The translations under genes and the position numbers were made by a program. Shown here one piece after another: positions 11,703 through 30,169 of a stretch of DNA of 47,241 bases (position 1 is the first letter of the stretch; each line of letters begins with the position of its first letter). The notes under the pieces are model-generated. The model searched no databases. It was not told where the DNA came from and worked only from the letters and a program-made list of their open reading frames with translations. Source of the stretch: Mycobacteriales bacterium (lineage in GTDB: Bacteria; Actinomycetota; Actinomycetes; Mycobacteriales; SCTD01). The stretch is taken from contig JBKJVH010000009.1 of assembly GCA_046590985.1 (NCBI GenBank), forward strand, positions 1-47,241, written 5' to 3'.

Positions 11703-12896
11703 ATGACATCTCGCGACGACAGGGTCATCGTGATCGGCGGCGGCATCGGCGGGCTCGGTGCCGCACGCGGTCTGCACGGCATGGGCGTGCCCGTCACCGT
11801 CTTCGAGCAGGCGGCCGAGCTCAAGGAGGTCGGCGCCGGTATCCAGGTCTGGGTCGACGGCATGAAGGCGCTGCACGAGATCGGGGCGGCCGACTACGTC
11901 AACGCCCACTCCGGGCGGCTGGACCGGATGGAGTTCCGCTCCTGGAAGGGATCGGTGCTCGTCACGAACCAGCTCGGCAACTTGTGCCAGGAGACCGGCG
12001 CCGCGAGCCCGGTGATGATCCGGCGCGCCGAGCTGCTGACCGCGCTCAGCCGAGACCTGCCGCCGGAAGCCATCCAGCTCGAGAGCCGATGCGTCGGGTT
12101 CACGCAGGACGACACGGGCGTGACGGTGCAGTTCGCCGACGGACGCGAGGAACGCGGCGCGGTGCTGCTGGCTTTCGACGGCATCAACTCCGTGATCCGT
12201 CGCCAGGAGTTCGGCGAGGTCAGCACGCCGCGGTTCGCCGGCTACCAGTACCTCCGGGCCATCACCTACTACGACAAGCCGGCGTTCCCGCGCAACCAGT
12301 TCTCGTTCACCTTCGGTCCCGGCGACCGCTTCGGCATGGGCGACGTCGGCGGTGGCTGGATCTACTGGTTCGGGGTGCTGACCTACCCGCAGGAGAACAC
12401 CCAGGACGGGCCCGAGGGCCGCAAGGGCGAGTTGCTGCGCCGGTTCAAGGACTTCCCTGCACCGGTCCCCGAGGCGCTCGAGGGCACCCCCGAGGACGAC
12501 ATCCTGCGCAACGACATCCGCGACCTACCTGCTCTGACGCAGTGGGCGAGCGGTCGCGTGACCGTCGCCGGCGATGCCGCGCACGCCCCGACTCCCAACC
12601 TGGGACGTGGCGCCAGCATGGCCTTGGTGGACGGCTGGACGCTCTCGCGCCGCCTCGCCGAGGCTGGGGACCTGACCGACCTCGAGCGGGTCCGTGGCGC
12701 CCTCTCAGCCTTCGAGGCCGAGCGCCGCCCCGAGACCACGAAGATCCAGAACTTCTCGTGGCGGTTCGGGAGCACCGCGAACTGGTCGAACCCCGTGGCG
12801 TGGCGAGTGCGCGACAGCGTCATGAAGGTCGTGATGCCCCGGGCGATGGTCAAGGACTCCCGCCAGGAGTTCGCGCAGTACAGCCTGACTACCTGA
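11703..12896 (+). CDS. FAD-dependent monooxygenase (aromatic hydroxylase family)
   Basis: VIGGGIGG, DGINS, GDAAHAPTPNLGRGASMA; GGGAG RBS before ATG 11703. Confidence 0.93.
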   Translation: MTSRDDRVIVIGGGIGGLGAARGLHGMGVPVTVFEQAAELKEVGAGIQVWVDGMKALHEIGAADYVNAHSGRLDRMEFRSWKGSVLVTNQLGNLCQETGAASPVMIRRAELLTALSRDLPPEAIQLESRCVGFTQDDTGVTVQFADGREERGAVLLAFDGINSVIRRQEFGEVSTPRFAGYQYLRAITYYDKPAFPRNQFSFTFGPGDRFGMGDVGGGWIYWFGVLTYPQENTQDGPEGRKGELLRRFKDFPAPVPEALEGTPEDDILRNDIRDLPALTQWASGRVTVAGDAAHAPTPNLGRGASMALVDGWTLSRRLAEAGDLTDLERVRGALSAFEAERRPETTKIQNFSWRFGSTANWSNPVAWRVRDSVMKVVMPRAMVKDSRQEFAQYSLTT

Positions 12897-13836
12897 CGAA
12901 CTCCGGATTGGCCGCAGCGAACGACTCGAGCTTCTTGACCGAGTCCGCGGCGACGCCCTCGACGTCGCGGTCGATCTGCCGGATGAGACCGGTGAGGGTC
13001 CGGCCGGCCCCTAGCTCCAGAGTGCGCCCCACCCCCGCACCCACCAGAGCCTGTACGCACTCGACCCACCGGACCGCGCCGGTGATCTGGTTGGTCAGCG
13101 CCTCGCGCACCTCGTCCGCGGTGGTGACCAGCCGGCCCATCGCGTTGGAGGCCATCGGGACGTCCGGGTCCCGGAAGGCCACCTCGCCCATCAGCTCGGC
13201 CATCTTCGCCTGGGTCGGAGCCATCAGCTGGCTGTGGAACGCGGCGCCCACCTGCAGCCGTACCGCCTTCTCCGCCCCGGCGCCAGGAGCCGCCTCGACC
13301 ACCGCTTCGACGCCGGCGATCTCGCCGGAGACCACGATCTGCGTCGGGGTGTTGAGGTTCGCCGGGGCCACCAGACCAGCGGTGGCACTGACCTGCTCGC
13401 ACAGCGCCGTGAGGTCCGCCAGCGGCATCCCCATGATGGCCGCCATCGCCCCGGGGCGCTCGTCCTGCGCCCCCGCCATCAAGCGCCCGCGTTCGGCAAC
13501 GAGCCGCAGGCCGTCCTCGTACGACAGGGCGCCCGAGGCCACCGCTGCGGTGTACTCGCCCAGGCTGTGCCCGGCGACGAAGTCCGGCCGCAGGCCGAGC
13601 TCGCGAGCCACCTCGAGGACCGCGAGCGACAGCGCGAACAGCGCCGGCTGCGCGACGTTGGTCTCGGTCAGCGACTCGGCCGGCCCTTCAAGGGCGTACT
13701 GCCGGACCGGCACCCCAGCCGCAGCGTCGGCTGCCGCGAAGTAGCGATCGAACAGCTCAGGCCTGACCTCGAGGAGGTCCGCCCCCATCCCGACCTTCTG
13801 CGAACCTTGCCCCGGAAACACGAACGCGAGCTTCAT
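12889..13836 (-). CDS. fabD: Malonyl-CoA:ACP transacylase
   Basis: FVFPGQGSQ, AQPALF, GHSLGEY, GAAFHS. Confidence 0.95.
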   Translation of the reverse strand: MKLAFVFPGQGSQKVGMGADLLEVRPELFDRYFAAADAAAGVPVRQYALEGPAESLTETNVAQPALFALSLAVLEVARELGLRPDFVAGHSLGEYTAAVASGALSYEDGLRLVAERGRLMAGAQDERPGAMAAIMGMPLADLTALCEQVSATAGLVAPANLNTPTQIVVSGEIAGVEAVVEAAPGAGAEKAVRLQVGAAFHSQLMAPTQAKMAELMGEVAFRDPDVPMASNAMGRLVTTADEVREALTNQITGAVRWVECVQALVGAGVGRTLELGAGRTLTGLIRQIDRDVEGVAADSVKKLESFAAANPEFVR

Positions 13837-13868: not shown

Positions 13869-16811
13869 TCAGCGGGCGCCGACGGGCTCTCCGGCAGTGA
13901 CCTCGGCAGCGGCGTAGACGAAGCGAGCGTGCCCGATCCAGACCTCGTCGCCCTCCTGCAGCACTGCGGTACGCACCCTGGTCTTGTTGACGAACGTGCC
14001 GACCCGGCTGTCGAGGTCCGACACCCGACAGCCGCCGCCGGACTCCCGGATCGCGACCGCGTGGAAGCGCGAGACCTGCGGAGCGTCCAGCACGATGTCG
14101 TTGCCGCGGTCGCGTCCGAGGCGCAGTTCGGGACGGTCCTGAAGGAGCGTGGCCAGGTTGCCGCTGCGGACCTGCTGGGCCGACGGCGTCGGCCGCGGAG
14201 CAGCGCCTCGGACGGCGTGCGCGACGACGGCAGCCAACTCCGGATCGCGCGCCAGCAGAGCGGCGAAATCGTCGTAGCTCAGGGTCCACAGCTGCGCATC
14301 CGTCACGGCGGTAACCGTGGCGGCGCCGCGCGCACCGCCGAGCAGCGCGACCTCCCCGAACAACTGCCCGGCCCCGAGCCGCGCGGTCTCGGTGACGGTT
14401 CCGCGGAAGTCCCAGGCCACCGAGAGGGTGCCGGCGTCGAGCAGGCAGAGCTCGGTCAGCGGCGCGTTGTCGCGGCTCACGATTCCCCCGGCCGGCACGG
14501 TCTTGGGCCTCAGCAGCGCGGCGACCTGACGCATCCCCTCCGGGGACGCGTGTCCGAGCAGGGGCACCCGGCGCAGCCAGGCCACCCGTGCGTCCTCGAC
14601 CCGACCTTGACGAAGCAGCACGGTCTCCCTGGCTCCGGTGGGTGCCGCGCGCGTTCCGGAGGGGCCTTCGGAGATCCCGAAACGGTCATGGAGGCGGCGC
14701 AGCAACGGCGGGGCCCACCAGTTCGCCTCGCCCGCAAGGCGCATGAACGCAGGCACGAGCACGCCGCGCACCAGGGTCGCGTCCATGAGGACCGCGATGG
14801 TCAGGCCGACGCCCATCAGCTTGATGAAGGTGACCTGGGAGGTCGCGAACGAGGTGAACGTGACCGCGAGGATGGCGGCCGCCGCCGTCATGATCCGGCC
14901 GGTCTTCTGCAGCCCGACGGCGACCGCCGAGGTGGTGTCGCGGGAGTGGTCGCGCTCCTCCTTGATGCGCGACAGCAGGAAGACCTCGTAGTCCATCGAC
15001 AGCCCGAACGCGATGCAGAACATCAGGATCGGGATCGTGGTGTTCAGCGACCCTGTCGGCGTGAAGCTCAGCAGGCTCGAGCCATGGCCGTCCTGGAACA
15101 CCCACACCATCGCGCCGAACGTCGCCCCCAGGCTGAGCACGTTCAGCACGATGGCCTTGACCGGGATGAGCACGCTGCCGGTCATGAGGAACAGCAGTAC
15201 GAACGTCGCGCCCGCCACCAGCAGCAGAGCCACCGGAACGAGGCCGAAGATCGCAGACTTGGAGTCGACGAGCTCCGCTGCCGGACCGGCCACCAGGAAC
15301 GGCACGCCGGCCTTCAGCGCGCGCACTGCCTTGACGAGGCCGGCGCCGGCCGAGGACACCGGCTCCACGTTCGAGGAGACCTCCAGGTAGGAGCCGGTCG
15401 CATCCTTCAGCCGCTGCCCAGCGGGGGTCGGATCAGCCACCTTCGCGCCGTTCTCGAAGCTGCCCGTACTGGCTTCGACGCGACTGACCTTCGGCACCCT
15501 GGAGATGGCGGTCGCCAGCTCGGTCGTCTGCTCCGCGGTTGCCTTGGGGAGCACCACCGGGAACGACCGTGCGGCGCCGGCGGTGAAGTCGTGACGGACG
15601 CTGTCCCCGACGATCCGGGCGGGGTTGCTGGGCGGCAGGTCGCGGTCGTCGGGGAGGCTGAACGAGACGCCGAGGAACGGCACCGCGAGCGCCGCCAGCA
15701 CGATGACGACCGGCAGCCCGGTCCGCACCGGCCGACGCATGACGGTGTGCGACAGGCTGTACCAGAAGCCCGCACCGCTGTCGGCCTTGCTCCTGCGCCG
15801 GCCGACGGCGAGGTTGTTCACCCGCGGGCCGAGGACGGCCAGCAGGGCCGGCAGGGTGAGCAGGCCGCCGAGGGCGGCAATCAGCACCACCGCCACGCCG
15901 GCATAGGCGAACGAGCTCAGGAAGTAGAGCGGGAAGATGAGCAGCGCGGACAGCGCGACGGCCACCGTGATGGCGCTGAACGCGACGGTGCGACCGGCGG
16001 TCTCGACGGTCCGGGCGATGGCCGCTTCGGTGTCCAAGCCGTTCGCGAGCTCCTCCCGGAACCGCACGACCACGAGCAGGCTGTAGTCGATCGCGAGCCC
16101 CAGCCCGAGCGCGGTGGCGAGGTTGATCGAGAAGATCGAGACATCGGTGATGAGCGAGACCAGGAACAGCGCGAGGAACGTCCCCATGATCGCCAGTGCC
16201 CCGAGGGCCAGCGGCAGCAGCGCCGCCACGACCCCGCCGAAGACCAGGAGCAGCAGCACCAGCGTGATCGGCACGGCGAAGGACTCGGCCTTGGCGAGGT
16301 CGGCGCCGATCGTCTTGCCGAGGCCCACACCGGGGCCGCCGGCCTGGATCTTCAGTCCCTCGAAGGTGCCCTCGTACTTGGTGGCCAACCGGTCGGCGAT
16401 CTTGTCGTTCTCATCGCCGGCGTGGTCGAGCCGGACGAGCAGCAGGGCCTTGTTCCCGGCGGTGCTCCGCAGCCCCGGCACCGCCCCGGGCCAGTAGGAC
16501 ACCACGCCCTTGACGCCCTTCTCGGCGGTCACCTTGGCCGTCAGGTCGGTGCCGCTCCTGACGGCCGCGGGGGCATCGACGCTGCCCGGCGCGGTGACCA
16601 GCAGGAGCAGGTCGGTGCTGCCCGCGCGGAACCGGTCCGCGAGGACGGTGCCTGCCCGTACCGACTCCGCGGACGGGTCCTGGAAGCCGCCGGACTTCAG
16701 GCGGCTGAACACCCCGGGGCCCGCCACGATCGCCGCCACCAGGAACACGATGGTGCCGCCGAGCACGAGCCAGCGGCGCCGGTAGGCGAACTTGCCCAGG
16801 AAAGCGAACAC
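13869..16811 (-). CDS. MMPL (RND) transporter with C-terminal cNMP-binding and FHA domains
   Basis: GLGLAIDYSLL...RFREE and FGLSMDYEVFLLSRIKEE; then LRRVPLL...FGEVALLGG (cNMP fold) and LGRD...VSRFHA...GTFVN (FHA). Confidence 0.92.
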   Translation of the reverse strand: MFAFLGKFAYRRRWLVLGGTIVFLVAAIVAGPGVFSRLKSGGFQDPSAESVRAGTVLADRFRAGSTDLLLLVTAPGSVDAPAAVRSGTDLTAKVTAEKGVKGVVSYWPGAVPGLRSTAGNKALLLVRLDHAGDENDKIADRLATKYEGTFEGLKIQAGGPGVGLGKTIGADLAKAESFAVPITLVLLLLVFGGVVAALLPLALGALAIMGTFLALFLVSLITDVSIFSINLATALGLGLAIDYSLLVVVRFREELANGLDTEAAIARTVETAGRTVAFSAITVAVALSALLIFPLYFLSSFAYAGVAVVLIAALGGLLTLPALLAVLGPRVNNLAVGRRRSKADSGAGFWYSLSHTVMRRPVRTGLPVVIVLAALAVPFLGVSFSLPDDRDLPPSNPARIVGDSVRHDFTAGAARSFPVVLPKATAEQTTELATAISRVPKVSRVEASTGSFENGAKVADPTPAGQRLKDATGSYLEVSSNVEPVSSAGAGLVKAVRALKAGVPFLVAGPAAELVDSKSAIFGLVPVALLLVAGATFVLLFLMTGSVLIPVKAIVLNVLSLGATFGAMVWVFQDGHGSSLLSFTPTGSLNTTIPILMFCIAFGLSMDYEVFLLSRIKEERDHSRDTTSAVAVGLQKTGRIMTAAAAILAVTFTSFATSQVTFIKLMGVGLTIAVLMDATLVRGVLVPAFMRLAGEANWWAPPLLRRLHDRFGISEGPSGTRAAPTGARETVLLRQGRVEDARVAWLRRVPLLGHASPEGMRQVAALLRPKTVPAGGIVSRDNAPLTELCLLDAGTLSVAWDFRGTVTETARLGAGQLFGEVALLGGARGAATVTAVTDAQLWTLSYDDFAALLARDPELAAVVAHAVRGAAPRPTPSAQQVRSGNLATLLQDRPELRLGRDRGNDIVLDAPQVSRFHAVAIRESGGGCRVSDLDSRVGTFVNKTRVRTAVLQEGDEVWIGHARFVYAAAEVTAGEPVGAR

Positions 16812-16839: not shown

Positions 16840-18363
16840 TCAGGTGAGGGCGGGCATCGACTCGGGGTTGAAGCGCTCCGCACTGGCAGGCACTCCGAGC
16901 TGCCCCATGACGAGGCCGCTGGAGAAGACCCCGGAGATCATGGCACGCAGGAAGCAGCCGCCTGGCTGGGTGAAGGCACCGGCGAGGTAGAGCCCCGGCA
17001 GCGGGGTCACCGGGGCCGGCCGCGAGCCACCGGCGGCTTGCGGGGTCGGTGCCCAGCCGAAGGCCGTACCGCCCTGCCGGCGAGCCTGGAGCGCCAGCAT
17101 GGCCGGGGTGGTGACCTGGGTGTGGGTGAGACCTGCGGCGAGCCCGGGGAAGGTCTGCTCGGCGACCGCGAGCAACCGGTCCCGCCAGCGCTCGGCCGCC
17201 TCCTCCCAATCGGGCTCGGCGGACTGGGGCGCGAACGCAGTCACCGCCACGACGTGCTCACCAGCCGGAGCGAGCGAGGGGTCGACCAGCGACGGGACCC
17301 GGATCAGCACGCTCTGCGGGTCACCGGCTGCGGTGGCGTCGAAGCAGGCGTCGAGGTCGAAGCCACTGACCACCGTGGTGTCCTTGGCGTCCGCGGCGGC
17401 CAGGTCATGGGTGGTTGCCGCGTGCAGGATCACCGCGGACGGCGCGGCCCCGAGCCGTCGGACCTTGCGCAGGAACGGGACCGGCAACGCGTCGGCGGGC
17501 AGCAGGTGGTCGTAGGTGCTGGTCGCGTCGGCGTTGGAGATGACCGCCGTGGCGTGGAGCGTCCGGCCGTCAGCGAGCTCGACGCCGGTGACCGTCCCCT
17601 CGGCGACGACGATGCTTGCCACGGCCGTACCGGTCAGGACCGTGCCACCGCCGCGTTCGATGGCGATGACCAGCGCGTCCGTGAAGGTCTGCGCTCCCCC
17701 GGCGAACATGAACGCGCCCTCGGTGACGTAGGTGCCGACCGCCTGGGCGAACGTGTTCATGGAAAGATGCCGTGGCGCAAGCCCTTGCATCATCCCGTTC
17801 AGCGCGCAGACGGCGCGCGCGACCGGGTCGGTGAGGTAGTCGTCGAGGGCCTCGTTGACGGTCGCCTTGCGGTAGCGGAACGCGGCGGGGTACTCCGCCT
17901 GCAGCCGATCGAGGTCGGCCAGCCCCGCGCTCTGCGGCAGCGCATGAGCCTGCTCATGAAGGTCGGTGCCGGCGGCGAAGAACGACGTCACGGCGGCGGC
18001 GTGCTCGTCGGGCAGGACCGCGGTGTGCGCGCCGACGAACGCCTCCATGGTGCCGATCGGGGCGTCGAAACGGATCCCCGGCAACACACCCGTGAAGAAC
18101 GTGTCGAGGTCGATCATCGAGCACACGTCGGTGATGCCGAGGAACGCCAGCATCGCCCGGAACAGCGGCGGGTCCGACAGTGCATGCACCGCAGGATCGA
18201 AGGTGTACGGACCGGAGTGCGCGGCCCGGGCATAGCCACCGGCTCGCTCGGCGGCCTCGACGACGACGACGTCGACGCCTGCCTTGGCCAGCAGCGCCGC
18301 AGCTGTCAGCCCCCCGACGCCTCCTCCGACGACGATCACGTCATGCCCGTTCGGGACTCCCAT
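16840..18363 (-). CDS. Phytoene desaturase (CrtI)-family FAD oxidoreductase, copy 1
   Basis: DVIVVGGGVGGL, GGYA...YTFD, VISNAD, TPLPGLYLAGAFTQPGG. Confidence 0.88.
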   Translation of the reverse strand: MGVPNGHDVIVVGGGVGGLTAAALLAKAGVDVVVVEAAERAGGYARAAHSGPYTFDPAVHALSDPPLFRAMLAFLGITDVCSMIDLDTFFTGVLPGIRFDAPIGTMEAFVGAHTAVLPDEHAAAVTSFFAAGTDLHEQAHALPQSAGLADLDRLQAEYPAAFRYRKATVNEALDDYLTDPVARAVCALNGMMQGLAPRHLSMNTFAQAVGTYVTEGAFMFAGGAQTFTDALVIAIERGGGTVLTGTAVASIVVAEGTVTGVELADGRTLHATAVISNADATSTYDHLLPADALPVPFLRKVRRLGAAPSAVILHAATTHDLAAADAKDTTVVSGFDLDACFDATAAGDPQSVLIRVPSLVDPSLAPAGEHVVAVTAFAPQSAEPDWEEAAERWRDRLLAVAEQTFPGLAAGLTHTQVTTPAMLALQARRQGGTAFGWAPTPQAAGGSRPAPVTPLPGLYLAGAFTQPGGCFLRAMISGVFSSGLVMGQLGVPASAERFNPESMPALT

Positions 18364-18402
18364 GGAGCGACAGTAACAACGCGCACTGAGTCGTGGGCCG
18401 GA

Positions 18403-19926
18403 TCACCAGGAGAACTCGACGGGGACGCCGGCGCGGGCACCGATCTGAGCAGCGGCCAGCCGACCCGCGATCGAGGAGCGCAGGAAGCCACTGCCCGGCG
18501 AGGTCCAGCCGCTGGCGAGGTAGAGCCCCTCGATCGGGGTGACCTGGTCGAGCGGTCGCGCTCCCGTTCCGTTGCCCCAGCCGTACTGCGCGCCCTGATG
18601 GTTGCGGGTGAACCGCTTGATCGTCTCCGGCGTGGAGAACGAGCTCGAGACGAGCTGGTTGCCGGTGCCGGGGAACAGCTCCTCGACGACCGCCTGCGCC
18701 GACTCGGCGTACTCAGCCTTGAGGTCCTTCCACGGCCGGCCGGCGTCGAAGGGTGCCGAGGTGGTCGTGACGAGCTGGTGCGGCTGACCCTCCGCGCGCC
18801 CTTCGAGCAAGGTCGGGACCGCGACGGCGGCGTAGCCCACGCGGCCGTCGAACGACGCCTGCCAGGCAGCCTCGAGGTCGACCATGGTGCTGTAGTAGAC
18901 GCTGTAGCCGCCGGCACCGCCGCGCTCGGCGTCCTCGAGAGTCGCGTTGGTGGCGAAGAAGCCGTTGAAGGTCGAGTCCGACGGGACGCCACGCCTGAGC
19001 TTGCGCTGGTAGCCGGCAGGCAGCTCCTGGTCGCCGAGCAGAGCCATGGTGGAGATCGGGTCAGCGTTGGACACGACCACCTTCGCAGCGATGGTGTCCC
19101 CGCCCTCCAGCCTGACCCCGGTCACCCGACCGTCCGCGACCGTGATGCCGTCGACCGCCCGGCCGTGAACCTGCTCCCCCCCGTGCTTGTCGATCGCACC
19201 GGCCACCGTGTCGAGCAGGTGCTGGATGCCGCCAACGACCCGCCCGGCGCCGTCCGCAGCGTGCGAGAACAGGTGCTGCGAGAAGACCGCAAAGGACAAT
19301 CGCGAGGGGGGAAGGCCGAGGTAGAGCCCGGGCAGCCCGATCACCGCCCGCGCCTCCGGGTCGTCGACGAAGACCTCCAGGACCTCGGCGAGACTGGCGG
19401 TGCGGTACTTCATGACCTCGGGGTGCTGGTCGACCAGCATCTGCAGGTTGCGCAGCCCACCGCCGCCTTCAAGGGTCTTGTGCAGGGCGAACTGCGTCTC
19501 GGCCGCGAGGGACAGGACCGCCCGCACCTGGTCGGCCGATCTCGGGAACAGGTCCACATGCGCGTCGATGTAGGGCTCCGCGCCGAAGGGCGCCGCGAGG
19601 TTCAGGTCCTTCCCGACGGCGATCCGCCAGAGGTAGGGCGGGACTGTGAACTCCACCTGGTCGGCGACCCCCAGGACGTCGAGGAGCCGATGCCAGTGCG
19701 GCGGGTCAAGCGTCGGGTGCACCGCCGGCTCCCAGCGCAGCCCGTCGGCCTCGAAGTCACTCACGAGGCCACCGGGCTTGGAACCTGCGTTGACGAGCAG
19801 GACCCCGAAGCCGGCGTTCGCCAGCACCGCGCCGGCGGTCAGACCGCCGATGCCACCGCCGATGACGATGACGTCGTACGCGTCGTGCCGCGGCGAGGTG
19901 GTCCTCGCATCGCTGGACTGGCTCAT
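18403..19926 (-). CDS. Phytoene desaturase (CrtI)-family FAD oxidoreductase, copy 2
   Basis: YDVIVIGGGIGGL, VVSNADP, STPETIKRFTRNHQGAQYG, TPIEGLYLASGWTSPGSG. Confidence 0.88.
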   Translation of the reverse strand: MSQSSDARTTSPRHDAYDVIVIGGGIGGLTAGAVLANAGFGVLLVNAGSKPGGLVSDFEADGLRWEPAVHPTLDPPHWHRLLDVLGVADQVEFTVPPYLWRIAVGKDLNLAAPFGAEPYIDAHVDLFPRSADQVRAVLSLAAETQFALHKTLEGGGGLRNLQMLVDQHPEVMKYRTASLAEVLEVFVDDPEARAVIGLPGLYLGLPPSRLSFAVFSQHLFSHAADGAGRVVGGIQHLLDTVAGAIDKHGGEQVHGRAVDGITVADGRVTGVRLEGGDTIAAKVVVSNADPISTMALLGDQELPAGYQRKLRRGVPSDSTFNGFFATNATLEDAERGGAGGYSVYYSTMVDLEAAWQASFDGRVGYAAVAVPTLLEGRAEGQPHQLVTTTSAPFDAGRPWKDLKAEYAESAQAVVEELFPGTGNQLVSSSFSTPETIKRFTRNHQGAQYGWGNGTGARPLDQVTPIEGLYLASGWTSPGSGFLRSSIAGRLAAAQIGARAGVPVEFSW

Positions 19927-20861: not shown

Positions 20862-22523
20862 TCAGGCGGGCACGATCGGCAGCAGTACGTGCGACGCGCG
20901 GACCGCGTCGTGGCAGACCGTCTGGTCGGCCACCCGCAGGTCCTCCGGGCCGTCGACGCCGAGGGCGTGGCCGGTGTTGGGGTTGCGGTCGAAGCGCGGG
21001 AAGCTCGCGCTGGTCACGTCGACGCGGACCCGGTGCCCAACGCCGAACACGTTGGACGTCGCGACCAGGTCGACCCGGAGCTCCTCGACCTGGCCCGGGA
21101 CCATCGGCACCTCGCGGTCGCGGCCCTCCCGGAACCGGCAGCGCAGCACCCCCTCGGCCAGCAGCATCGACCGCCCGTCAGGGTGCACGTCGCAGAGCTT
21201 CACGACCACGTCGGTATCGAGGGCGCTGGTCGCGAAGTGCAGCACCACCGTCAGCGGGCCGGTGACCTCGAGCGGTTCCCCCAGCGCCTCCGAGGTGAAC
21301 ACGAGCACGTCCGGGCGAGCCTCGGTCGGGGTCTGGTCGCGCGGGCCCTGGTCGGTCCGCATCATCCGGCCGGGCAGCGAGGTGGGGCCGCCGAGGGTCG
21401 GCGCCGGGTCGGCAGGGTCGTAGCGGAAGCGACTGGGCTCGGCGGCCTGCGGAGCAGCCGGCGAAAGGCCACCGCCGGCGTGCAGGAACCACGGTGTCGG
21501 CACCGCCCGCGCCAGCGGCCAGGACTCCTCGTCCCGCCAGGTGTTCACGCCCTGGACGAAGATCCGCACCGGCCGCTCGTCGTCGCCCTCCCAGAGAGCA
21601 ACCGAGGAACCCCGGAGGTGCCGGTCGAAGTACCGCAGCTGCAGCTCGGTCAGGTCGAGGTCAGCGCTCTCGGGAACGCCCTCGAACCGGTGGTCGGGGT
21701 AGGAGCCGAGCGCCGCCCCGTGCGCCCACGGGCCGATGACCAGCCGCTGCCCGGCGCGGGCTGCCTCGTGAGCCGCCGACACCCGTAGCCGCGAGAAGTT
21801 CTGCAGCGTGCCGGCCAGGAAGATGTCATACCAACCGCCGATGTGCAGGGCCGGCACGGTGATCCGGTCGTAGTGCAGGCTCACCGCCTGCGAGGCCCAG
21901 TGCTCGTCCCAGCACGGATGCGCGAGCCACTCGGCGTAGAAGTTTGCGAGCGGGTTGCCCTGCAGCTCCGGGATGGCGTTGAGGGGCAGGTGCCCGGTCC
22001 AGTCGTCGAGCGGGCCGGAGCGCTTGGGCTCCGCGATGAGCCGTACCCAGAACAGGTTGAAGCCGAGCAGGAACGCACCGCCCTGGAAGATCGAGCCCTC
22101 GTAGGTCTCGCTGCCGGTGATGACCGGCGCCAGCGCCCGAAGGTGCGGTGGCCGGTGCACCGCCCCGAACCACTGCACCGCAGCAGGGTAGGAGCGCCCG
22201 ACCATCCCGACGGCTCCGGTGCACCAGGGCTGCGCAGCGACCCACTCGACGCTGTCGTAGGTGTCGGTGCCCTCGTGCACGAACGGCTCGAACGTGCCCT
22301 CGGAGCGACCCCTCCCCCGGACGTCCTGCACGACCACGGCAAAGCCTGCGTCGGTGGCCCGCTCCAGATCGATGGCCGCCTCCGCGATGACCGCGCGGCG
22401 CCCCTCGTACGGGGTACGGGTCAGCAACGCGGCAGCGGGCTCCTCCGCCTCGGGCAGGTAGACGTCAGCGGTGAGCACCACCCCGTCGCGCAAGGCAACA
22501 GGACACTTTCGGAGAGTACGCAC
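20862..22523 (-). CDS. CocE/NonD-family serine hydrolase
   Basis: LRDGVVLTADVY, RTPY, QDVRGRGRSEG, nucleophile GRSY, GGWYD, IGPWAH, C-terminal jelly-roll domain. Confidence 0.93.
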   Translation of the reverse strand: MRTLRKCPVALRDGVVLTADVYLPEAEEPAAALLTRTPYEGRRAVIAEAAIDLERATDAGFAVVVQDVRGRGRSEGTFEPFVHEGTDTYDSVEWVAAQPWCTGAVGMVGRSYPAAVQWFGAVHRPPHLRALAPVITGSETYEGSIFQGGAFLLGFNLFWVRLIAEPKRSGPLDDWTGHLPLNAIPELQGNPLANFYAEWLAHPCWDEHWASQAVSLHYDRITVPALHIGGWYDIFLAGTLQNFSRLRVSAAHEAARAGQRLVIGPWAHGAALGSYPDHRFEGVPESADLDLTELQLRYFDRHLRGSSVALWEGDDERPVRIFVQGVNTWRDEESWPLARAVPTPWFLHAGGGLSPAAPQAAEPSRFRYDPADPAPTLGGPTSLPGRMMRTDQGPRDQTPTEARPDVLVFTSEALGEPLEVTGPLTVVLHFATSALDTDVVVKLCDVHPDGRSMLLAEGVLRCRFREGRDREVPMVPGQVEELRVDLVATSNVFGVGHRVRVDVTSASFPRFDRNPNTGHALGVDGPEDLRVADQTVCHDAVRASHVLLPIVPA

Positions 22524-22529
22524 CCGGCG

Positions 22530-23621
22530 CTAGTCGGGGCAGGGGCCCGCGGTCCAGGGCAGGACCATCCCCGCGTACTTCCACATGCTCGTCTCGATCG
22601 CGAGCAGCATGACCAGGTCGCCGTTCTTGACGCCGCCGGTCTTCCACACGTGGTCCAGCGCGAGCGGCAACGCGGCCGACCCGGTGGCGCCGACCAGGGC
22701 GAGGTTCTCCATGATCTTCGGCGCGATGGCGACCCATTCGGGAGTGAGCAGGCCGGCCTCCTCGAGCTCATCGGTCATGTAGCTGGCGTTGCCCTCGGGG
22801 ATCACGCAGACGTCCACCTGGTCGGCGGTGATGCCGGCGGCCTTGCACAGCTCGGTGAGCGCTTCGGTCAGCACATAGGGCGTGAACTTGCCGCTCTCCA
22901 CGACGTCGACGTTGAGACGGAACAACTTGGGCTTGGCCAGCTGCTCCATGAGAGGCAGCGAGGTGCCACCGCCGACGACCTGCATGCCGGGCTTCTTGCC
23001 GCCGCCGACGCACGCGATCGAGGAGGCCAGCACGCCACCACCGCCGCTGTCGTCGTCGAAGGCGCGGAGCACCATCGCGCCGGCGCCGTCGCCGAAGCTG
23101 TACATCCCGACCCGCTCGCGCATCCGGATCGACTCCGGGTCCTTCCCACGGAACACCGGCACCAGCAGCGGGCTGATGGTCTCGGTGCCGACCACGACCG
23201 CGGTGCGGTACTGGCCGCGCTCGAGGTACATCCGGGCGACGTCGAGCGCCTCGACCGCGCCTGCACAGCCCGATCGGACGTCGAGGGTGGCGCACTTGCG
23301 CAGCCCCAGCCGGTCCTGCAGCAGCGTCGCCATCGGCGGCAGCAGCACGTCGGGGCTGGCCGTGGAGACCGCCAGGAAGTCGATCTCGTCGGCCGCGATG
23401 CCGGCGCGCGACAGCGCCTGCTCGATGGCCTTGAGCGCCATGTCGCTGTTGCGCTCGCGGTGCTCGCCGGTCTCGGTGTCGACCATCCAGTGCCGGGTCT
23501 TCACCTGGATGCCGTCGAGCACCTCCTCGGGCAGCGGCCCCATCAGCCGGGCGACCTCGTCGTTGCCGATCGGGTCACCGGGCAGGTAGGCGCCGGTGCT
23601 GACCAGCCGGACGGTCGTCAC
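22530..23621 (-). CDS. KAS III (FabH-fold) enzyme with non-canonical catalytic residues
   Basis: STGAYLPG, RSGCAG (Cys), FGDGAGA; the His site reads IPEGNA and the Asn site reads VGATGSA. GTGA overlap with the upstream stop. Confidence 0.85.
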   Translation of the reverse strand: MTTVRLVSTGAYLPGDPIGNDEVARLMGPLPEEVLDGIQVKTRHWMVDTETGEHRERNSDMALKAIEQALSRAGIAADEIDFLAVSTASPDVLLPPMATLLQDRLGLRKCATLDVRSGCAGAVEALDVARMYLERGQYRTAVVVGTETISPLLVPVFRGKDPESIRMRERVGMYSFGDGAGAMVLRAFDDDSGGGGVLASSIACVGGGKKPGMQVVGGGTSLPLMEQLAKPKLFRLNVDVVESGKFTPYVLTEALTELCKAAGITADQVDVCVIPEGNASYMTDELEEAGLLTPEWVAIAPKIMENLALVGATGSAALPLALDHVWKTGGVKNGDLVMLLAIETSMWKYAGMVLPWTAGPCPD

Positions 23622-25981
23622 ACCGGCCCCAGCACGATCGAGATGTTCGTACCACCGAGCGAGAGGCTGTTGATGACGATCGGCCCGCGCGGGGAGTGCT
23701 CGGTGTCCCCGAGCTGCCAGCCGTGCAGCGCGATCGCCGCGGCGACCGCGGCGCCCGCACCGAGCGGCTCCCCGAACAGCGGCCTCGTCGACAGCACCGC
23801 CAAGCCCGTACGGCCCCCGAACATCCTCGTGAGGGCCGCCTGCTCTGCTTTGTCGACCAGGGGATGCCCGCACGCCGAGCCCCACACCGCGACGACGTCG
23901 TCGGCCTTGACGGCCGCCCGCTCGAGTGCGATGGCCATGGCCCGCTCGATGCCGCGACCGTCCGGGTCGACGCCGGCGACCCCGAGCGCGTCAGAGGTGA
24001 TCCCGTAGCCGAGCACTTCACCCAGCACGGTGGCGCCGCGGGCCCGCGCGAGCGAGAGCCGCTCGACGGTGAGGGTGACCCCGGCCTCCGAGAGCCCGAA
24101 TCCTGCGTCGGAGCCCTCCGAGGGGTTGTTGGCCGCCAGGATCCCGATGCCGTCGTAGGCGCCGATCATGGTCTCGGTCAGGGTGTCGGCCGCGATGGCG
24201 ACGATCGCGTCGGCCTGGTCGGTCGCGACCAGGTCGGCGGCGTAGCAGAGCGCCGAGGCGCCGGCGGCGTGGCCCGCGGTGACGGTCGAGGTCGGCCCCG
24301 TCGTGCCGACGAGCATCGCGACCTGGCCGGTGGCCGCGTTGTACACGGTGTTCGGGAAGACAGCCGGGTTGGCACCGCTCGCGCCCTCCTCGATGACGCC
24401 GCGGGCGAACTCCTCCATGCTCTCCATCGGACCGACGGCGGTGCCGAGGATCGGGCCGATCCTGGTCCGGTTCTCGTCGGTGATCTCCAGGCCCGCGGCC
24501 TTCAGCGACTGAATGGTGGAGATGACCGCAGCCAGTCCGAGCCGGTCGACGCGGCGGCGCTGCTTGGGGTTGAGGTAGCTGCTGCCGTCCAGCTCGATCC
24601 GGCCGAGGCTGTGGCCGCCCTCCTCCATCAGGCAGGTACGACCCTCGACCCAGGCGCTCCACAGCGCGTCGATGTCGGGTCCGGCGCAGGTGACGGCGCC
24701 GATGCCGGTGATGACAGCCCGGTCCAGGTCGGGTGTGGGGACCGCGTCGGTCCGCCGACCGGCAGCGCCCATCATGAGCGTGACGTTGGCGCCACCGAAG
24801 GCGAAGTTGTTCGACATCGCGACCGGCATGTCCATCGGGCGAGCGACGTTCGGGACGTAGTCCAGGTCGCACTCGGGATCGGACTCGGTGAAGTTGGCCG
24901 TGGGCGGGGCGATCTGGTTGTGCAGCGCCAGGCTGGTGACGACCGCCTCGACCGCACCGGCCGCACCGAGCAGGTGCCCGATCATCGACTTGGTGCTGCT
25001 GACCGCAACGGTCGCGGCCGCTTCGCCGAGGCCGACCTTGGTGGCCTTCGTCTCGGCGGGGTCGTTCTTGGCCGTGCCGGTGCCGTGGCTGTTGACGTAG
25101 CGGACCTCTTCGGCGCGGACACCGGCGTTGCGGAGCGAGGCCTTGATGGCCCGGCCGGCGCCCAGGCCCTCAGGGTGCGGGGCGGTCGCGTGGTAGCCGT
25201 CCGCCGACAGTCCGTAGCCCAGGATCTCGGCCAGGATCGGCGCGCCCGCAGCCTTCGCGAGGTCCTCGCGGACGAGCACGAGCATCGCGCCGCCCTCGCC
25301 GAGCGACAGCCCGGTGCGGTCCTTGGAGTAGGGCGCCGCGGGGTTGGGCGACAGCGACTCCAGGGAGTTGAAGCCGGCGTAGAGCACGTCGGAGAAGGCG
25401 TCACTGCCCCCGGTGAGGACGGCATCGGCCTGACCGCTCCGGATGAGGTCGAGCGCCAAGCCGATCGCGTTGGCACTCGCCGCACAGGCGGTGTTCACCG
25501 ACAGCACCGGACCCTTGAGGCCGAAGGCGCCGCTCAGCGCCTCGGCCAGCGCCTGCGGGGTGACGAGCATCAGCAACCGAGGGTCGGCCTTGAGGCCGGC
25601 CTTCTGGTCGATCCACCACTTCTCCGCCGACAGCAGGCCGGCGTTGCAGGTGCCGATCGTGACGCCCCAGCGCTCGGCCGGGATCGACGCGCTGATCCCC
25701 TCGGCGGCCCCCATCGCCTCCTCCGCGGCCTTCAGCGCGAAGTCCACGACCGGGTCGCGGAAGTCCGGCGGCCGCCGGTAGTCGTGGGTCGGCAGGACGC
25801 GGTCCTTGACCTCGCCACCGATGCTCGTGCGGTAGCCCTCCATGGACAGGTGCTCGACCTCGCGGATCGCGCCCTTCCCTGCGACGACCGCGTCCCACAG
25901 CTCGGTGGCGGTGGAGCCGTGGCCGGTGATCGCTCCGACGGACGTGACGACGACCCGCGGCGGCGGTGCTTGCTCGGACAC
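23618..25981 (-). CDS. Tandem ketosynthase fusion: active FabF-type KS plus degenerate CLF-like KS
   Basis: Domain 1 has NTACAAS, HGTGT, GHLLG and NNFAFGG. Domain 2 has RAVITGIG, TAGHAAG (Cys to His), WGSACG and FGEPLG. Confidence 0.92.
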   Translation of the reverse strand: MSEQAPPPRVVVTSVGAITGHGSTATELWDAVVAGKGAIREVEHLSMEGYRTSIGGEVKDRVLPTHDYRRPPDFRDPVVDFALKAAEEAMGAAEGISASIPAERWGVTIGTCNAGLLSAEKWWIDQKAGLKADPRLLMLVTPQALAEALSGAFGLKGPVLSVNTACAASANAIGLALDLIRSGQADAVLTGGSDAFSDVLYAGFNSLESLSPNPAAPYSKDRTGLSLGEGGAMLVLVREDLAKAAGAPILAEILGYGLSADGYHATAPHPEGLGAGRAIKASLRNAGVRAEEVRYVNSHGTGTAKNDPAETKATKVGLGEAAATVAVSSTKSMIGHLLGAAGAVEAVVTSLALHNQIAPPTANFTESDPECDLDYVPNVARPMDMPVAMSNNFAFGGANVTLMMGAAGRRTDAVPTPDLDRAVITGIGAVTCAGPDIDALWSAWVEGRTCLMEEGGHSLGRIELDGSSYLNPKQRRRVDRLGLAAVISTIQSLKAAGLEITDENRTRIGPILGTAVGPMESMEEFARGVIEEGASGANPAVFPNTVYNAATGQVAMLVGTTGPTSTVTAGHAAGASALCYAADLVATDQADAIVAIAADTLTETMIGAYDGIGILAANNPSEGSDAGFGLSEAGVTLTVERLSLARARGATVLGEVLGYGITSDALGVAGVDPDGRGIERAMAIALERAAVKADDVVAVWGSACGHPLVDKAEQAALTRMFGGRTGLAVLSTRPLFGEPLGAGAAVAAAIALHGWQLGDTEHSPRGPIVINSLSLGGTNISIVLGPV

Positions 25982-25994
25982 TGTGGTGCTCCCT

Positions 25995-27263
25995 CTAGTG
26001 GGCTTGGGCGAAAATCAGGGCGACGTTCTGGCCGGTGAGCCCTCGCGCAACGGCGAGGGCATGGCGTACGGGGAGGTCCCTACCGGAGCCGGTCACGACG
26101 TTGAGGTCGCACGCCGGGTCGGGTCGGTCGAGGTTCAACGTGGGTGGGACGGTCTGGTGGTGGACGGCGAGGGCCGCGACGGCGGCGTTGAGCGCCCCGG
26201 CACCGCCCATCAGATGGCCGGTGGCGGCCTTGACGCTGCTGACGGCGACGGTGTCCGCGGTGGAACCCAGCACGGTCCGGAGGCCGCGCACCTCACTGAC
26301 GTCCCCGGTGCGGCTGCCGCTGGCGTGCGCAGCGACGTAGTCCACCGCGCCCGCGTCGACCCCGGCCTCGCGCAGGGCCGAGCCGACCGCACCGGCCACC
26401 GCCCGGCCGTCCGGGTTCGGCGTCAACGTGCCGTATCCGTCGTAGCTCGCGCCGTACCCGCAGATCTCGGCGTAGATGCGCGCTCCGCGGGCGAGCGCGC
26501 GCTCGCGCTCCTCGAGCACCAGGATCGCGGCGCCCTCCCCCGGCACGGTGCCGGACCGGCGGGCGTCGAAGGGTCGGCAGGTGCTCTCGCTCAGCAGCCC
26601 GAGCGACTGCAGGTTGGACATGTCCCACCAGTTGATGGGGTCGTCGAACCCGCCCGCGAGGATGACGTCGGCCTCGCCCCGCTTGATGGCGCGGAAGCCC
26701 CGGCCGACAGCGGTGGCGCTGGCGTCGGCCGTACCGGAGAAGTAGGTGTTGGCGCCCTTGAGTCCGTAGGCCTGGGACAGGAAGAAAAGGGAGGCGGCCT
26801 GCAGGCCCTCGACGAAGACGAGCGGGTTGACCGAGCTCTGCGCCTCCTTGCCGAAGCGGTGGATGTCGACGGTGCCGTCGTCATCACGGGAGGCCAGGAA
26901 CGCCTCCTTGAAGTGCGCCACGTCAGCAAGCTCCTTGCTGCTCCCGACGTACGCGCCCGCCCGCTCGGCTTCGTTCTCGGAGATCTCCAGGCCGGCGTCG
27001 GCCGCGGCCGTGAAGCCACCGGCCACCGCGAGCTGGTCGTTGCGCGTCATCATGCGCAACTGCCGGCGGTTCTCCTTGCTGACGTAGTCCTTCGGTACGA
27101 AGTCGGGCACCTCGGCGCCGAGCCCGTTGGCCAGGCTGGAGGTGTCGAACAGCGTCACCGGACCGAGCCCGCTGCGGCCGTCCATCAGGCCGGCCCAGGT
27201 GTCGGTGACGGTCGCGCCGAGACCCGTCAGCAGCCCGACGCCGGTCACGACGACCCGCCTCAT
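25995..27263 (-). CDS. FabF-like ketosynthase lacking the catalytic Cys (CLF-like partner or decarboxylase)
   Basis: MRRVVVTGVG; active-site loop GTADASA (Cys to Asp); both His kept (AHASGS, GHLMG). Confidence 0.88.
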   Translation of the reverse strand: MRRVVVTGVGLLTGLGATVTDTWAGLMDGRSGLGPVTLFDTSSLANGLGAEVPDFVPKDYVSKENRRQLRMMTRNDQLAVAGGFTAAADAGLEISENEAERAGAYVGSSKELADVAHFKEAFLASRDDDGTVDIHRFGKEAQSSVNPLVFVEGLQAASLFFLSQAYGLKGANTYFSGTADASATAVGRGFRAIKRGEADVILAGGFDDPINWWDMSNLQSLGLLSESTCRPFDARRSGTVPGEGAAILVLEERERALARGARIYAEICGYGASYDGYGTLTPNPDGRAVAGAVGSALREAGVDAGAVDYVAAHASGSRTGDVSEVRGLRTVLGSTADTVAVSSVKAATGHLMGGAGALNAAVAALAVHHQTVPPTLNLDRPDPACDLNVVTGSGRDLPVRHALAVARGLTGQNVALIFAQAH

Positions 27264-29333: not shown

Positions 29334-29334
29334 C

Positions 29335-30121: not shown

Positions 30122-30169
30122 GCGATGTCCTCCTGTTGCGATCCTGTGAGCAGTGCGTTGCGGCCGGTC

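What the first reader, a model, noticed from the sequence alone, without database searches (positions are those of the whole stretch)
13869..16811. MMPL exporter with a cytoplasmic cNMP-FHA tail
Seen: a complete MMPL core followed in frame by cNMP (~14240-14580) and FHA (~13915-14130) domains. The phosphate-binding cassette reads GEVALLGGARGAATV, with Gly where the ABC copy has the conserved Arg, so it may be degenerate. Known: MMPL proteins export lipids and polyketides; I know no characterised one with these domains. Inference: gated export, or docking onto the ABC exporter's matching module.
Basis: partly seen in the sequence, partly recalled or inferred. Interest (0 to 1): 0.78.

Follow-up and report, generated by a model that had tools for sequence, protein, structure and literature searches.

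The report
Lipid exporter with a borrowed sensor tail
A membrane lipid exporter in a soil bacterium's lipid-making gene cluster ends in a signalling module copied from the neighbouring ABC exporter, a rare arrangement that probably puts both pumps under one control.

Summary
Window 13869-16811 (-) is one open 980-aa gene. It has an MmpL3-type MMPL core (residues 1 to about 715), then a cyclic-nucleotide-binding (CNB) domain and an FHA domain, all above Pfam cut-offs. An independently assembled contig of run X1 bridges the core/tail junction with no differences.

The tail is a diverged copy (44-52% identity) of the N-terminal CNB-FHA head of the cluster's ABC-2 exporter at 31021-33570.

It alone among 14 such modules lacks the phosphate-binding Arg (G829) and the Ser/Thr after it (A830). 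It keeps the FHA phosphothreonine-binding residues.

I found no second MMPL with this C-terminal tail. The nearest same-genus homologue ends 35 residues after the last helix. An Egibacteraceae MAG has the same module fused independently to the N-terminus of a different MMPL/RND pump, next to the orthologous ABC exporter. One origin for both is rejected (AU p = 2e-11).

MMPLs with FHA, kinase or other tails exist, so I rate this a new variant of a known kind.

Most likely function, inferred only: phospho-dependent co-regulation or co-assembly with the ABC exporter, not classical cAMP/cGMP gating.

The parts
13869..16811 (-). Whole gene: MMPL core + CNB + FHA, 980 aa (P0001); stop codon TGA at 13869-13871
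14667..16811 (-). MmpL3-type (cluster II) MMPL/RND core, residues 1 to about 715. Asp-Tyr pairs D242-Y243 (16080-16094 region) and D607-Y608 (14985-14999 region); last helix ends at WWAP, residues 698-701
   Evidence: PF03176; full-length alignment to M. smegmatis MmpL3 structures, E=1.3e-107, both DY motifs aligned; hydropathy, no hydrophobic segment after about residue 690
14577..14666 (-). Linker between the last transmembrane helix and the CNB domain (residues about 716-745); lowest GC3 of the gene (0.78)
   Evidence: the same-genus homologue G004:C374 is alignable up to about residue 716 and then stops 20 residues later
14214..14576 (-). Cyclic-nucleotide-binding (CNB) domain, residues about 746-866
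   Evidence: PF00027, 50.8 bits; MloK1 CNBD E=1e-12; AF2 pLDDT 77-94 over the domain; Foldseek TM-target 0.83-0.91 to CNB domains
14313..14360 (-). Phosphate-binding cassette FGEVALLGGARGAATV (residues 818-833): Gly-Glu kept, canonical Arg is G829, following Ser/Thr is A830
13914..14144 (-). FHA domain, residues about 890-966; G899-R900, S914, H917 and N942 kept
   Evidence: PF00498, 58 bits; GarA/OdhI/Rv1747 FHA structures, E 1e-12 to 3e-10
31021..33570 (+). Partner exporter P0021: CNB-FHA head + ABC ATPase + ABC-2 permease. A gene caller's version starts 30 codons later (P0172, 819 aa)
31138..31890 (+). CNB-FHA head of the ABC exporter (residues 40-290), the paralogue of the MMPL tail; PBC FGEIALLGGGRRSATV is canonical
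12889..13836 (-). FabD-like acyltransferase gene, starting MKLAFVFPGQGSQ 32 nt after the MMPL stop (same strand, likely same operon)
16840..19926 (-). Two CrtI-family FAD oxidoreductase genes directly upstream on the same strand
20862..30943 (-). Type II FAS/PKS-like genes on the same strand: CocE/NonD hydrolase, KASIII-like, fused double KS, two KS, two FabA-like dehydratases, ACP, FabG-like ketoreductase

Best explanation
The gene encodes a proton-driven MmpL3-type (cluster II) MMPL lipid exporter. It sits in the middle of a species-specific type II FAS/PKS-like lipid gene cluster. In place of the usual C-terminal cytoplasmic domain it carries a folded CNB-FHA module. That module arose by duplication of the N-terminal regulatory head of the cluster's ABC-2 exporter and was fused just after the last transmembrane helix. 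The FHA half keeps its phosphothreonine-binding residues. The tail therefore most likely ties the MMPL to the same Ser/Thr-kinase-dependent input, or the same phospho-dependent assembly, that controls the ABC exporter, so that the two exporters of the cluster are switched or gathered together. The CNB half has lost the canonical phosphate-binding Arg and Ser and has evolved fast. It probably no longer senses cAMP/cGMP in the classical way and serves as scaffold or adaptor. Shown: gene continuity, domain identities, paralogy to the ABC head, the unique PBC change, retained FHA residues, and an independent second fusion elsewhere. Inferred: export substrate, kinase input, co-regulation, and loss of nucleotide binding.
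For: The gene is real and continuous. The core aligns over its full length with MmpL3 structures (E=1.3e-107) with both Asp-Tyr proton-relay pairs, against E about 1e-22 for MmpL4/5. Cluster II MmpLs have a cytoplasmic C-terminal domain used for localisation, partner binding and Ser/Thr phosphoregulation (PMC10171966, passages read). Over about 245 columns the tail is 43.7% identical to the window's own ABC head and 50.6% identical to the head of P0003, an orthologous ABC. In the ML tree of 14 modules the tail lies inside the W_ABC/P0003 clade (98/98) on a long branch (0.83 against 0.23 and 0.45). PBC Arg is present in 13 of 13 other modules but is Gly in the tail; Ser/Thr is present in 11 of 13 but is Ala in the tail. 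For the FHA residues, Gly-Arg is kept in 12 of 14 modules, Ser in 12 of 14, His in 14 of 14 and Asn in 14 of 14, and the tail keeps all of them. AF2 folds both halves (mean pLDDT 75.8) with a low-confidence linker between them. There is a second, independent case. G229 (named 'Egibacteraceae' by NCBI) has a 1225-aa CNB-FHA + MMPL/RND protein directly upstream of the orthologous CNB-FHA-ABC exporter. Its module is 64% identical to its neighbour's and sister to it (96/94). Its transporter core is only distantly related to this one (27% over 162 aa). A single origin of the two MMPL-fused modules is rejected (AU p=2.1e-11). The genome has 11 Pkinase and 7 class III cyclase matches. Precedent: the M. 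tuberculosis ABC exporter Rv1747 is regulated through its FHA domains and PknF phosphorylation of its linker (PMC8339232, abstract).
Against: There is no functional data of any kind: the organism is an uncultured MAG (78% complete). No Ser/Thr kinase gene lies in the window. The tail's long branch and weaker CNB score (50.8 bits against 81.4 for the ABC head) could equally mean decay. An Arg at position -1 of the lost Arg (R828) might still reach a phosphate, so loss of nucleotide binding is not proven. The tree places the tail as sister to P0003's head rather than to the window's own ABC head (95/91), although the alternative is not rejected (AU p=0.34); the donor may have been a different ABC gene. 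In G255 the ABC exporter has no MMPL within the 20 kb fetched, so the pairing is not universal. One X1 contig at 88% likeness suggested a joint 14118 to 16947, with only 21 letters on its short side. The tool's own note calls such joints unreliable.
Confidence: 0.55

Rival explanations
1. Ligand-gated exporter. The CNB domain still binds a small molecule, either a cyclic nucleotide through R828 or another nucleotide or nucleoside, and this binding directly opens or closes MMPL transport. The FHA domain is a secondary input.
For: The CNB fold is intact and confidently modelled. Gly-Glu of the PBC and the flanking residues are kept. The window holds four CNB proteins and the genome has 7 cyclase matches, so cyclic-nucleotide signalling is a theme of the locus. 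CNB domains without the Arg can bind other ligands: one Foldseek hit is titled 'cAMP-independent protein kinase A from Trypanosoma brucei'; what that protein binds is recalled, not tested here.
Against: The canonical Arg and Ser/Thr are both replaced, only in this copy (13 of 13 and 11 of 13 others keep them). The best PDB sequence match is an MloK1 CNB domain mutant (1u12; titles it a mutant). That this mutation is at the same Arg and weakens cAMP binding is recalled. The branch is long.
Confidence: 0.2
2. Physical docking. The tail pairs directly with the ABC exporter's homologous head (CNB-CNB or FHA-phospho-linker contacts). The two transporters then form one export complex or cluster, as FHA-phosphothreonine contacts cluster Rv1747.
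For: The modules are paralogous. The same pairing recurs with adjacent genes in G229, made by an independent fusion. Reviews listed discuss Rv1747 clustering by phase separation (listing only, not read).
Against: No direct evidence. The modules have diverged to 44% identity. The MMPL and ABC genes lie 14 kb apart on opposite strands here. In G255 the ABC stands without an MMPL in the 20 kb fetched.
Confidence: 0.15
3. Neutral or decaying fusion. An accidental duplication landed in frame behind the MMPL, and the tail has no function.
For: The architecture is a singleton in the searches. The nearest same-genus MMPL has no tail. The branch is long and the PBC is degenerate.
Against: About 55% amino-acid and 35% nucleotide divergence has accumulated since the duplication, with no stop or frameshift in 265 codons. 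Coding-type GC3 is kept. All FHA ligand-binding residues are kept. Both domains fold confidently. A convergent fusion exists in another lineage.
Confidence: 0.07
4. Assembly chimera or missed frameshift. The MMPL and the CNB-FHA protein are really two genes.
For: The contig comes from a metagenome bin. Only contig-level data, not raw reads, could be laid.
Against: A second assembler's contig bridges residues 604-827 with 0 differences at even depth. There is no repeat at the junction. The frame and GC3 are continuous. Pieces from another study match both sides.
Confidence: 0.03

Closest known systems
Mycobacterial cluster II MmpL transporters (MmpL3, MmpL11, MmpL13)
   Same: Same core type: full-length alignment to MmpL3 structures, both Asp-Tyr pairs, no MmpL4/5-type docking domain. 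A cytoplasmic domain is attached after the last helix, and in MmpL3 that domain serves localisation, partner binding and Ser/Thr phosphoregulation (PMC10171966).
   Different: MmpL3's C-terminal domain is described as disordered and is itself the phosphorylated substrate. Here the tail is two folded reader domains (CNB, FHA). The protein scores 435 bits against a 1400-bit cut-off on NCBIfam's MmpL3 model, so it is not a trehalose-monomycolate exporter orthologue. Its gene context is a type II FAS/PKS-like cluster.
Rv1747 of M. tuberculosis (FHA-FHA-ABC-ABC2 exporter regulated by PknF)
   Same: A lipid-type exporter with cytoplasmic FHA domain(s) read by Ser/Thr phosphorylation. The window's ABC partner has the same body plan, and the tail's FHA matches the Rv1747 FHA structure 6cah (E=3e-10; PMC8339232 abstract).
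   Different: Rv1747 has two FHA domains and no CNB domain. It is an ABC transporter, not an MMPL. Its kinase is encoded next to it; no kinase gene is in this window.
Uncharacterised CNB-FHA-ABC-ABC2 exporters (P0003, P0173, P0174, P0175, P0176, P0178, P0179; L030, L031; G229 and G255 copies)
   Same: The tail is a member of this module family by sequence and by tree.
   Different: In all of these the module is N-terminal to an ABC ATPase and keeps the PBC Arg. Here it is C-terminal to an MMPL and lacks it. I found no paper on this family.
G229 protein P0293/P0294 ('MMPL family transporter [Egibacteraceae bacterium]')
   Same: The same three Pfam families in one protein (MMPL, cNMP_binding, FHA), with the module copied from the adjacent ABC exporter.
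   Different: The module is N-terminal and its PBC is canonical. The RND core belongs to a different subfamily (27% over 162 aa). The origin is independent (AU p=2e-11). No lipid-synthesis cluster lies around it.
MmpL3-like MMPLs with other C-terminal tails (P0026 and P0139/P0290 with two FHA, P0052 and P0078 with one FHA, P0028 with Pkinase, P0023 with AMP-binding, P0067 with EF-hands)
   Same: Same core subfamily (39-52% identity) and the same attachment point; four of the nine long proteins scanned carry FHA.
   Different: None has a CNB domain. Their FHA domains show no special likeness to the ABC-head FHA.

Membership tests
MMPL family (PF03176), RND superfamily | Two-lobed match to the family model above the curated cut-off | tested here: met
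   232.3 bits against a cut-off of 20.5, 2 stretches
MMPL family (PF03176), RND superfamily | Asp-Tyr proton-relay pairs in TM4 and TM10 | tested here: met
   AIDY (D242-Y243) and SMDY (D607-Y608) align with the AIDY and STDY motifs of MmpL3. The role of these pairs is from PMC10171966.
Cluster II MmpL (MmpL3/11/13 type) | [quoted passage not shown] | tested here: met
   A 265-residue non-hydrophobic tail follows the last helix. MmpL3 structures match at E=1e-107 over the full length; MmpL4/5 match at 1e-22, mostly over residues 502-705.
MmpL3 (trehalose monomycolate exporter) equivalog, NCBIfam NF052608 | Score above the curated equivalog cut-off | tested here: not met
   435.1 bits against a cut-off of 1400
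MMPL lipid exporter | Transports a lipid or polyketide substrate | not testable with these tools
   Only gene context
Cyclic nucleotide-binding domain (PF00027) | Family model above cut-off, and the beta-barrel plus helices fold | tested here: met
   50.8 bits against 27.5; AF2 model plus Foldseek, TM-target 0.83-0.91 to MloK1, PKG and other CNB domains
Cyclic nucleotide-binding domain (PF00027) | Phosphate-binding cassette with Gly-Glu and the Arg-Ser/Thr pair that holds the cyclic phosphate (the role of these residues is recalled) | tested here: not met
   Gly-Glu present. Arg is G829 and Ser/Thr is A830; 13 of 13 and 11 of 13 other modules keep them.
Cyclic nucleotide-binding domain (PF00027) | Binds cAMP or cGMP | not testable with these tools
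   -
FHA domain (PF00498) | Family model above the cut-off | tested here: met
   58.0 bits against 20.7; GarA, OdhI and Rv1747 FHA structures at E 1e-12 to 3e-10
FHA domain (PF00498) | Conserved Gly-Arg, Ser-x-x-His and Asn of the phosphothreonine site (list of residues recalled) | tested here: met
   G899-R900, S914, H917, N942
FHA domain (PF00498) | Binds a phosphothreonine peptide | not testable with these tools
CNB-FHA regulatory head of ABC-2 exporters (family defined here) | Colinear CNB + linker + FHA module alignable over about 245 residues | tested here: met
   E=6.9e-130 to the 3-row profile that includes it. Independent measures: 44-52% identity to the ABC heads, and a position inside their clade.
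CNB-FHA regulatory head of ABC-2 exporters (family defined here) | Sits N-terminal to an ABC ATPase | tested here: not met
   Here it is C-terminal to an MMPL core

The most novel reading that the evidence does not exclude
Matched 'address tags'. Bacteria repeatedly copy the CNB-FHA head of an ABC lipid exporter onto a partner RND/MMPL pump, at either end of the protein. Phosphothreonine-FHA contacts then gather the two mechanistically different transporters into one kinase-controlled export hub. In the copy, the CNB domain is freed from nucleotide sensing and becomes the adaptor. This would be a modular, convergent way to couple an ATP-driven and a proton-driven transporter for two-step export of one lipid.
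Probability: 0.2. Interest if true: 0.75.

Novelty: new variant of a known kind. Interest (0 to 1): 0.55.

Why it matters
How MMPL exporters are regulated, and whether they work with other transporters, is an open question. Even for MmpL3, the review read here says it is unclear how C-terminal phosphorylation lowers activity (PMC10171966). This locus offers a natural experiment. The disordered tail is replaced by two folded reader domains whose origin is known (the partner ABC exporter's head). One half has changed at its defining ligand-binding residues and the other has not. The same solution was reached independently in another actinobacterial lineage. That makes co-regulation or co-assembly of an ABC and an MMPL exporter directly testable with soluble domains. 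It also brings to notice an apparently undescribed CNB-FHA-ABC exporter family and a cyclic-nucleotide-themed lipid gene cluster.

Tried and rejected

Complex prediction. I ran complex prediction on the ABC head (A2, residues 40-288) with the tail (A1). The result was 'no answer' (score 0.00 in both runs; controls not folded). It counts neither for nor against binding.

Metagenome scan. The metagenome-contig scan with profile A1 returned 70 loci. It was unproductive.

Genome-collection scan. The genome-contig scan kept 80 of 307 relatives. Two (L030, L031) matched both halves, and both are ABC heads. I did not examine the other 78, whose tblastn matches cover one half only.

Limits of the protein searches:
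- The word-index searches score only 8000 candidates each.
- One search listed 120 of 168 hits, so 48 went unseen.
- One search also missed P0294, which the genome search found later. 'Singleton' therefore means 'none found', not 'none exists'.
- The HMMER search of 1.84 billion representatives shows only the best 150 of 43,316 hits. An MMPL with a distant core plus this tail would fall below that list.
- Of the 22 listed proteins longer than 850 aa, I scanned 9 with Pfam. I screened all 150 with phmmer using the tail as query, and only P0139 matched. That screen missed the FHA tails of P0026, P0052 and P0078, which Pfam then found, so it is insensitive.

Sequencing runs. Runs X3 and X6 (small word shares) gave only short pieces, mostly on the conserved MMPL motif near 14950-15030, and say nothing about this gene. 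No RNA run was available, so expression is untested.

MMPL FHA tails. I tested whether the FHA tails of P0290, P0139 and P0026 derive from ABC heads. They showed no special likeness, so I dropped the idea.

Shared contig length. P0290 (MMPL with two FHA) and P0178 (CNB-FHA-ABC) list the same longest-contig length, 26038 bp. This may mean one contig.

Unpublished genomes. G023 and G030 are among the 40 relatives. Only the tallies 'no CNB-FHA module found in 40 relatives' and 'best MMPL core 54%' include them.

Supplements. Supplementary files of the papers were not consulted.

I corrected that and sent the same report again.
Full report
1. Observation

The window is the whole 47,241-bp contig C104 of a metagenome-assembled genome (3.46 Mb, 259 contigs, 78% complete). 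It has about 70% G+C.

The ORF 13869..16811 on the minus strand is 980 codons long with no internal stop. It starts at a GTG preceded by GGAAGG, 29 nt after the stop of the upstream CrtI-like gene. A FabD-like acyltransferase gene follows 32 nt after its stop.

Pfam gives three families above their gathering scores:
- MMPL: 9.3e-69, two stretches.
- cNMP_binding: residues 770-856, 50.8 bits.
- FHA: residues 897-960, 58.0 bits.

2. Is the fusion real?

- Third-position GC is 0.78-1.00 in all 50-codon blocks and dips only in the two linkers.
- The tail and the ABC head share just 65% DNA identity over 490 nt, so there is no repeat that could mislead an assembler.
- Logan contigs of run X1 (97% of the sampled words; probably the source sample, so not independent of the sample, only of the assembler) tile the gene at even depth (10.4-12.1). 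One 671-nt contig spans 14329-14999, from the transmembrane region (residue 604) into the CNB domain (residue 827), with no differences.
- Run X2, from another study, holds near-identical pieces on both sides: 14652-14803 with 0 differences and 14374-14524 with 1 difference.
- These are contigs, not raw reads.
- One low-support joint (21 letters on its short side) was also listed. I discount it, in line with the tool's own note on such joints.

3. The core

Residues 1-717 align with the M. smegmatis and M. tuberculosis MmpL3 structures (E=1.3e-107). Both Asp-Tyr pairs are in place (D242-Y243, D607-Y608). MmpL4 and MmpL5 match far less well, at about 1e-22.

The NCBIfam MmpL3 equivalog score is 435 bits against a cut-off of 1400. 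The protein is therefore an MmpL3-type ('cluster II') MMPL, not an MmpL3 orthologue.

The review PMC10171966 (passages read) states four things about cluster II MmpLs:
- They differ from the others by a cytoplasmic C-terminal domain.
- That domain acts in localisation, protein-protein interaction and Ser/Thr phosphoregulation.
- In MmpL3 it is predicted to be disordered.
- How its phosphorylation lowers activity is not clear.

In the window protein the last hydrophobic segment ends near residue 690 and the tail has none.

4. The tail is a copy of the ABC exporter's head

The window encodes an 849-aa exporter at 31021-33570 (+) with CNB, FHA, ABC ATPase and ABC-2 permease domains.

- BLASTP aligns tail residues 746-971 with head residues 53-278 at 46% identity (6e-49).
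- P0003 is an 828-aa orthologue of that ABC exporter (67% identical overall). Its head is 52% identical to the tail.
- Over the common alignment the three pairwise identities are 43.7, 50.6 and 52.8%. The duplication is therefore about as old as the split of the two ABC orthologues.

The maximum-likelihood tree of 14 modules places the tail inside that ABC clade (98/98), on a branch of 0.83 against 0.23 and 0.45 for its neighbours. The tree puts the tail as sister to P0003's head. Sisterhood with the window's own ABC head is not rejected (AU p=0.34).

5. What changed and what did not

In the alignment of 14 modules:
- The tail alone has Gly (G829) where the other 13 have the cassette Arg.
- The tail has Ala (A830) where 11 of the 13 have Ser/Thr.
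- The alignment to the MloK1 CNB domain gives the same register.
- An Arg remains one position earlier (R828); it is shared with the two closest ABC heads.

The FHA residues Gly-Arg, Ser, His and Asn are all kept in the tail. Across the set they are kept in 12, 12, 14 and 14 of 14 modules. The roles of the cassette and FHA residues are recalled textbook knowledge, not tested here.

AlphaFold2 with a 7-row alignment gives mean pLDDT 75.8. It models a CNB domain (residues 1-134 of the tail), a low-confidence linker (135-146) and an FHA sandwich. The top Foldseek matches are CNB domains of MloK1, PKA and PKG, with TM-target up to 0.91.

6. How rare is it?

Searches that found no other MMPL with a CNB domain:
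- Word-index search with the tail: 19 hits, and the only row with PF03176 is the window's own protein.
- Profile search among longer proteins: 168 hits, 120 listed, with the same result. It also defined about eight CNB-FHA-ABC clusters.
- HMMER of the whole protein against 1.84 billion representatives: the best 150 are all MMPL cores at no more than 55% identity.

Among the 9 long relatives scanned with Pfam, however, the tails are varied:
- two FHA domains (P0026, P0139);
- one FHA domain (P0052, P0078);
- a protein kinase (P0028);
- an AMP-binding enzyme (P0023);
- EF-hands (P0067).

Genome searches:
- In the window's own genome the nearest paralogue (51% identity) has no tail.
- In 40 relatives, 22 of them of the same genus, the best cores are 51-54% identical and end near residue 720. 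No CNB-FHA module was found.
- The closest same-genus fragment (G004:C374, 62% identity over residues 483-730) stops 35 residues after WWAP and is followed by a TetR-like gene.
- The 20-kb cluster has no syntenic copy in 22 same-genus genomes.

All of these searches have limits, which are set out under Tried and rejected.

7. A second, independent fusion

Among 401 genomes sampled from the phylum, the module occurs in three: G000, G229 and G255.

- G229 carries two copies 3 kb apart. One heads the orthologous ABC exporter. The other heads a 1225-aa MMPL/RND protein encoded directly upstream. NCBI names that protein 'MMPL family transporter [Egibacteraceae bacterium]'.
- The G229 module has a canonical cassette. 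It is 64% identical to its neighbour's and sister to it (96/94).
- Its transporter core is only distantly related to the window's (27% over 162 aa).
- Among 120 listed relatives of that core (219 hits in all), it is again the only one with CNB+FHA.
- Forcing the two MMPL-fused modules into one clade costs 61 log-likelihood units (AU p=2.1e-11).

The same ABC head has therefore been copied onto a partner RND-type pump twice, once at each end of the protein. This argues that linking the two transporters is selected for rather than accidental.

8. Context

On the same strand as the MMPL gene lie:
- a FabD-like acyltransferase;
- two CrtI-family oxidoreductases;
- a CocE/NonD hydrolase;
- a KASIII-like enzyme;
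- a fused double ketosynthase;
- two further ketosynthases;
- two FabA-like dehydratases;
- an ACP;
- a ketoreductase.

Acetyl-CoA carboxylase subunits lie on one side and the ABC exporter on the other. The product is unknown. It is probably a polyketide- or fatty-acid-derived lipid or polyene.

The genome has 11 protein-kinase and 7 class III cyclase matches. No kinase gene lies in the window.

9. Mechanism

The best-supported reading is that the tail couples this MMPL to the same phospho-dependent control or assembly as the ABC exporter. It would do so through an intact FHA domain, while its CNB half has left classical cyclic-nucleotide sensing.

The closest characterised analogues are Rv1747, with FHA domains and PknF (abstract of PMC8339232), and the phosphoregulated MmpL3 tail.

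Only the anatomy and the evolutionary history are shown. Substrate, kinase, ligand loss and any contact with the ABC head are inferred.

Rival readings are a still-functional ligand gate, direct docking, neutral decay and an assembly artefact. They are weighed in their own sections.

10. Literature

- Full-text search for MmpL with 'FHA domain' and 'cyclic nucleotide-binding': 22 papers held at least 2 of the 3 terms. None of the 15 listed concerns an MMPL with such domains (listing only).
- 'Cyclic nucleotide-binding domain' with 'FHA domain' and 'ABC transporter': 3 papers matched and 1 was listed, on Toxoplasma (listing only).

I therefore found no description of this architecture or of the CNB-FHA-ABC family. 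Subscription journals and supplements were not searched.

11. Verdict

- This is a new variant of a known kind: a cluster II MMPL with a regulatory tail. It has an unusual and traceable origin and a convergent twin.
- Interest is moderate.

Noticed in passing
window 40717-42414 (+) and 44149-45921 (-): Two genes for CNB-domain + patatin-like phospholipase proteins. With the MMPL tail and the ABC head, the window holds four CNB-domain proteins, so this is a cyclic-nucleotide-themed lipid locus.
   Followed up: no
window 37752-43117 (+): A second, separate type II PKS set: cupin, KS, KS/CLF-like, ACP (about 42420-42661) and SRPBCC polyketide cyclase. The ABC and the MMPL might therefore serve different products.
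   Followed up: no
window 11000-30990: The 20-kb biosynthetic stretch has no syntenic copy in 22 genomes of the same genus. Only conserved patches of MMPL, FabF-like and FabG-like genes match, at 64-97% DNA identity. The cluster is species-specific or acquired.
   Followed up: partly
window 20709-20761: A 53-nt intergenic stretch between the methyltransferase and the CocE/NonD hydrolase genes recurs on other contigs of the same genome, at 94% on C68 and C62 and 87% on C154. It is a small dispersed repeat of unknown nature.
   Followed up: no
G000:C228:3318-10246: The nearest tail-less MMPL paralogue (51% identity) lies about 4 kb from a class III cyclase match and a CNB-domain match. This suggests a looser, unfused link between an MMPL and cyclic-nucleotide signalling.
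   Followed up: no
G000:C81:3431-6307: Another MMPL gene is followed within about 800 nt by a protein-kinase match.
   Followed up: no
proteins P0023, P0026, P0028, P0052, P0067, P0078, P0139, P0301: MMPL/RND exporters carry a wide range of fused cytoplasmic domains: FHA, two FHA, Ser/Thr kinase at either end, AMP-binding enzyme, EF-hands. This range of regulatory fusions appears to be little studied.
   Followed up: partly
proteins P0290 and P0178: An MMPL with two FHA domains and a CNB-FHA-ABC exporter both list a longest contig of 26,038 bp, so they may be neighbours on one contig. That would be a third kind of FHA-matched MMPL/ABC pair. Not verified.
   Followed up: partly
L185:6930-7820 (-) (G229): A PNPOx-like + CNB-domain gene sits directly downstream of the G229 ABC exporter, and two metallophosphoesterase genes lie beyond it. 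They are possible cyclic-nucleotide turnover or sensing partners.
   Followed up: no
modules of P0003 and P0179: Two ABC heads have Ser in place of the FHA Gly-Arg arginine, so loss of a canonical ligand-binding residue also occurs on the FHA side in this module family.
   Followed up: no
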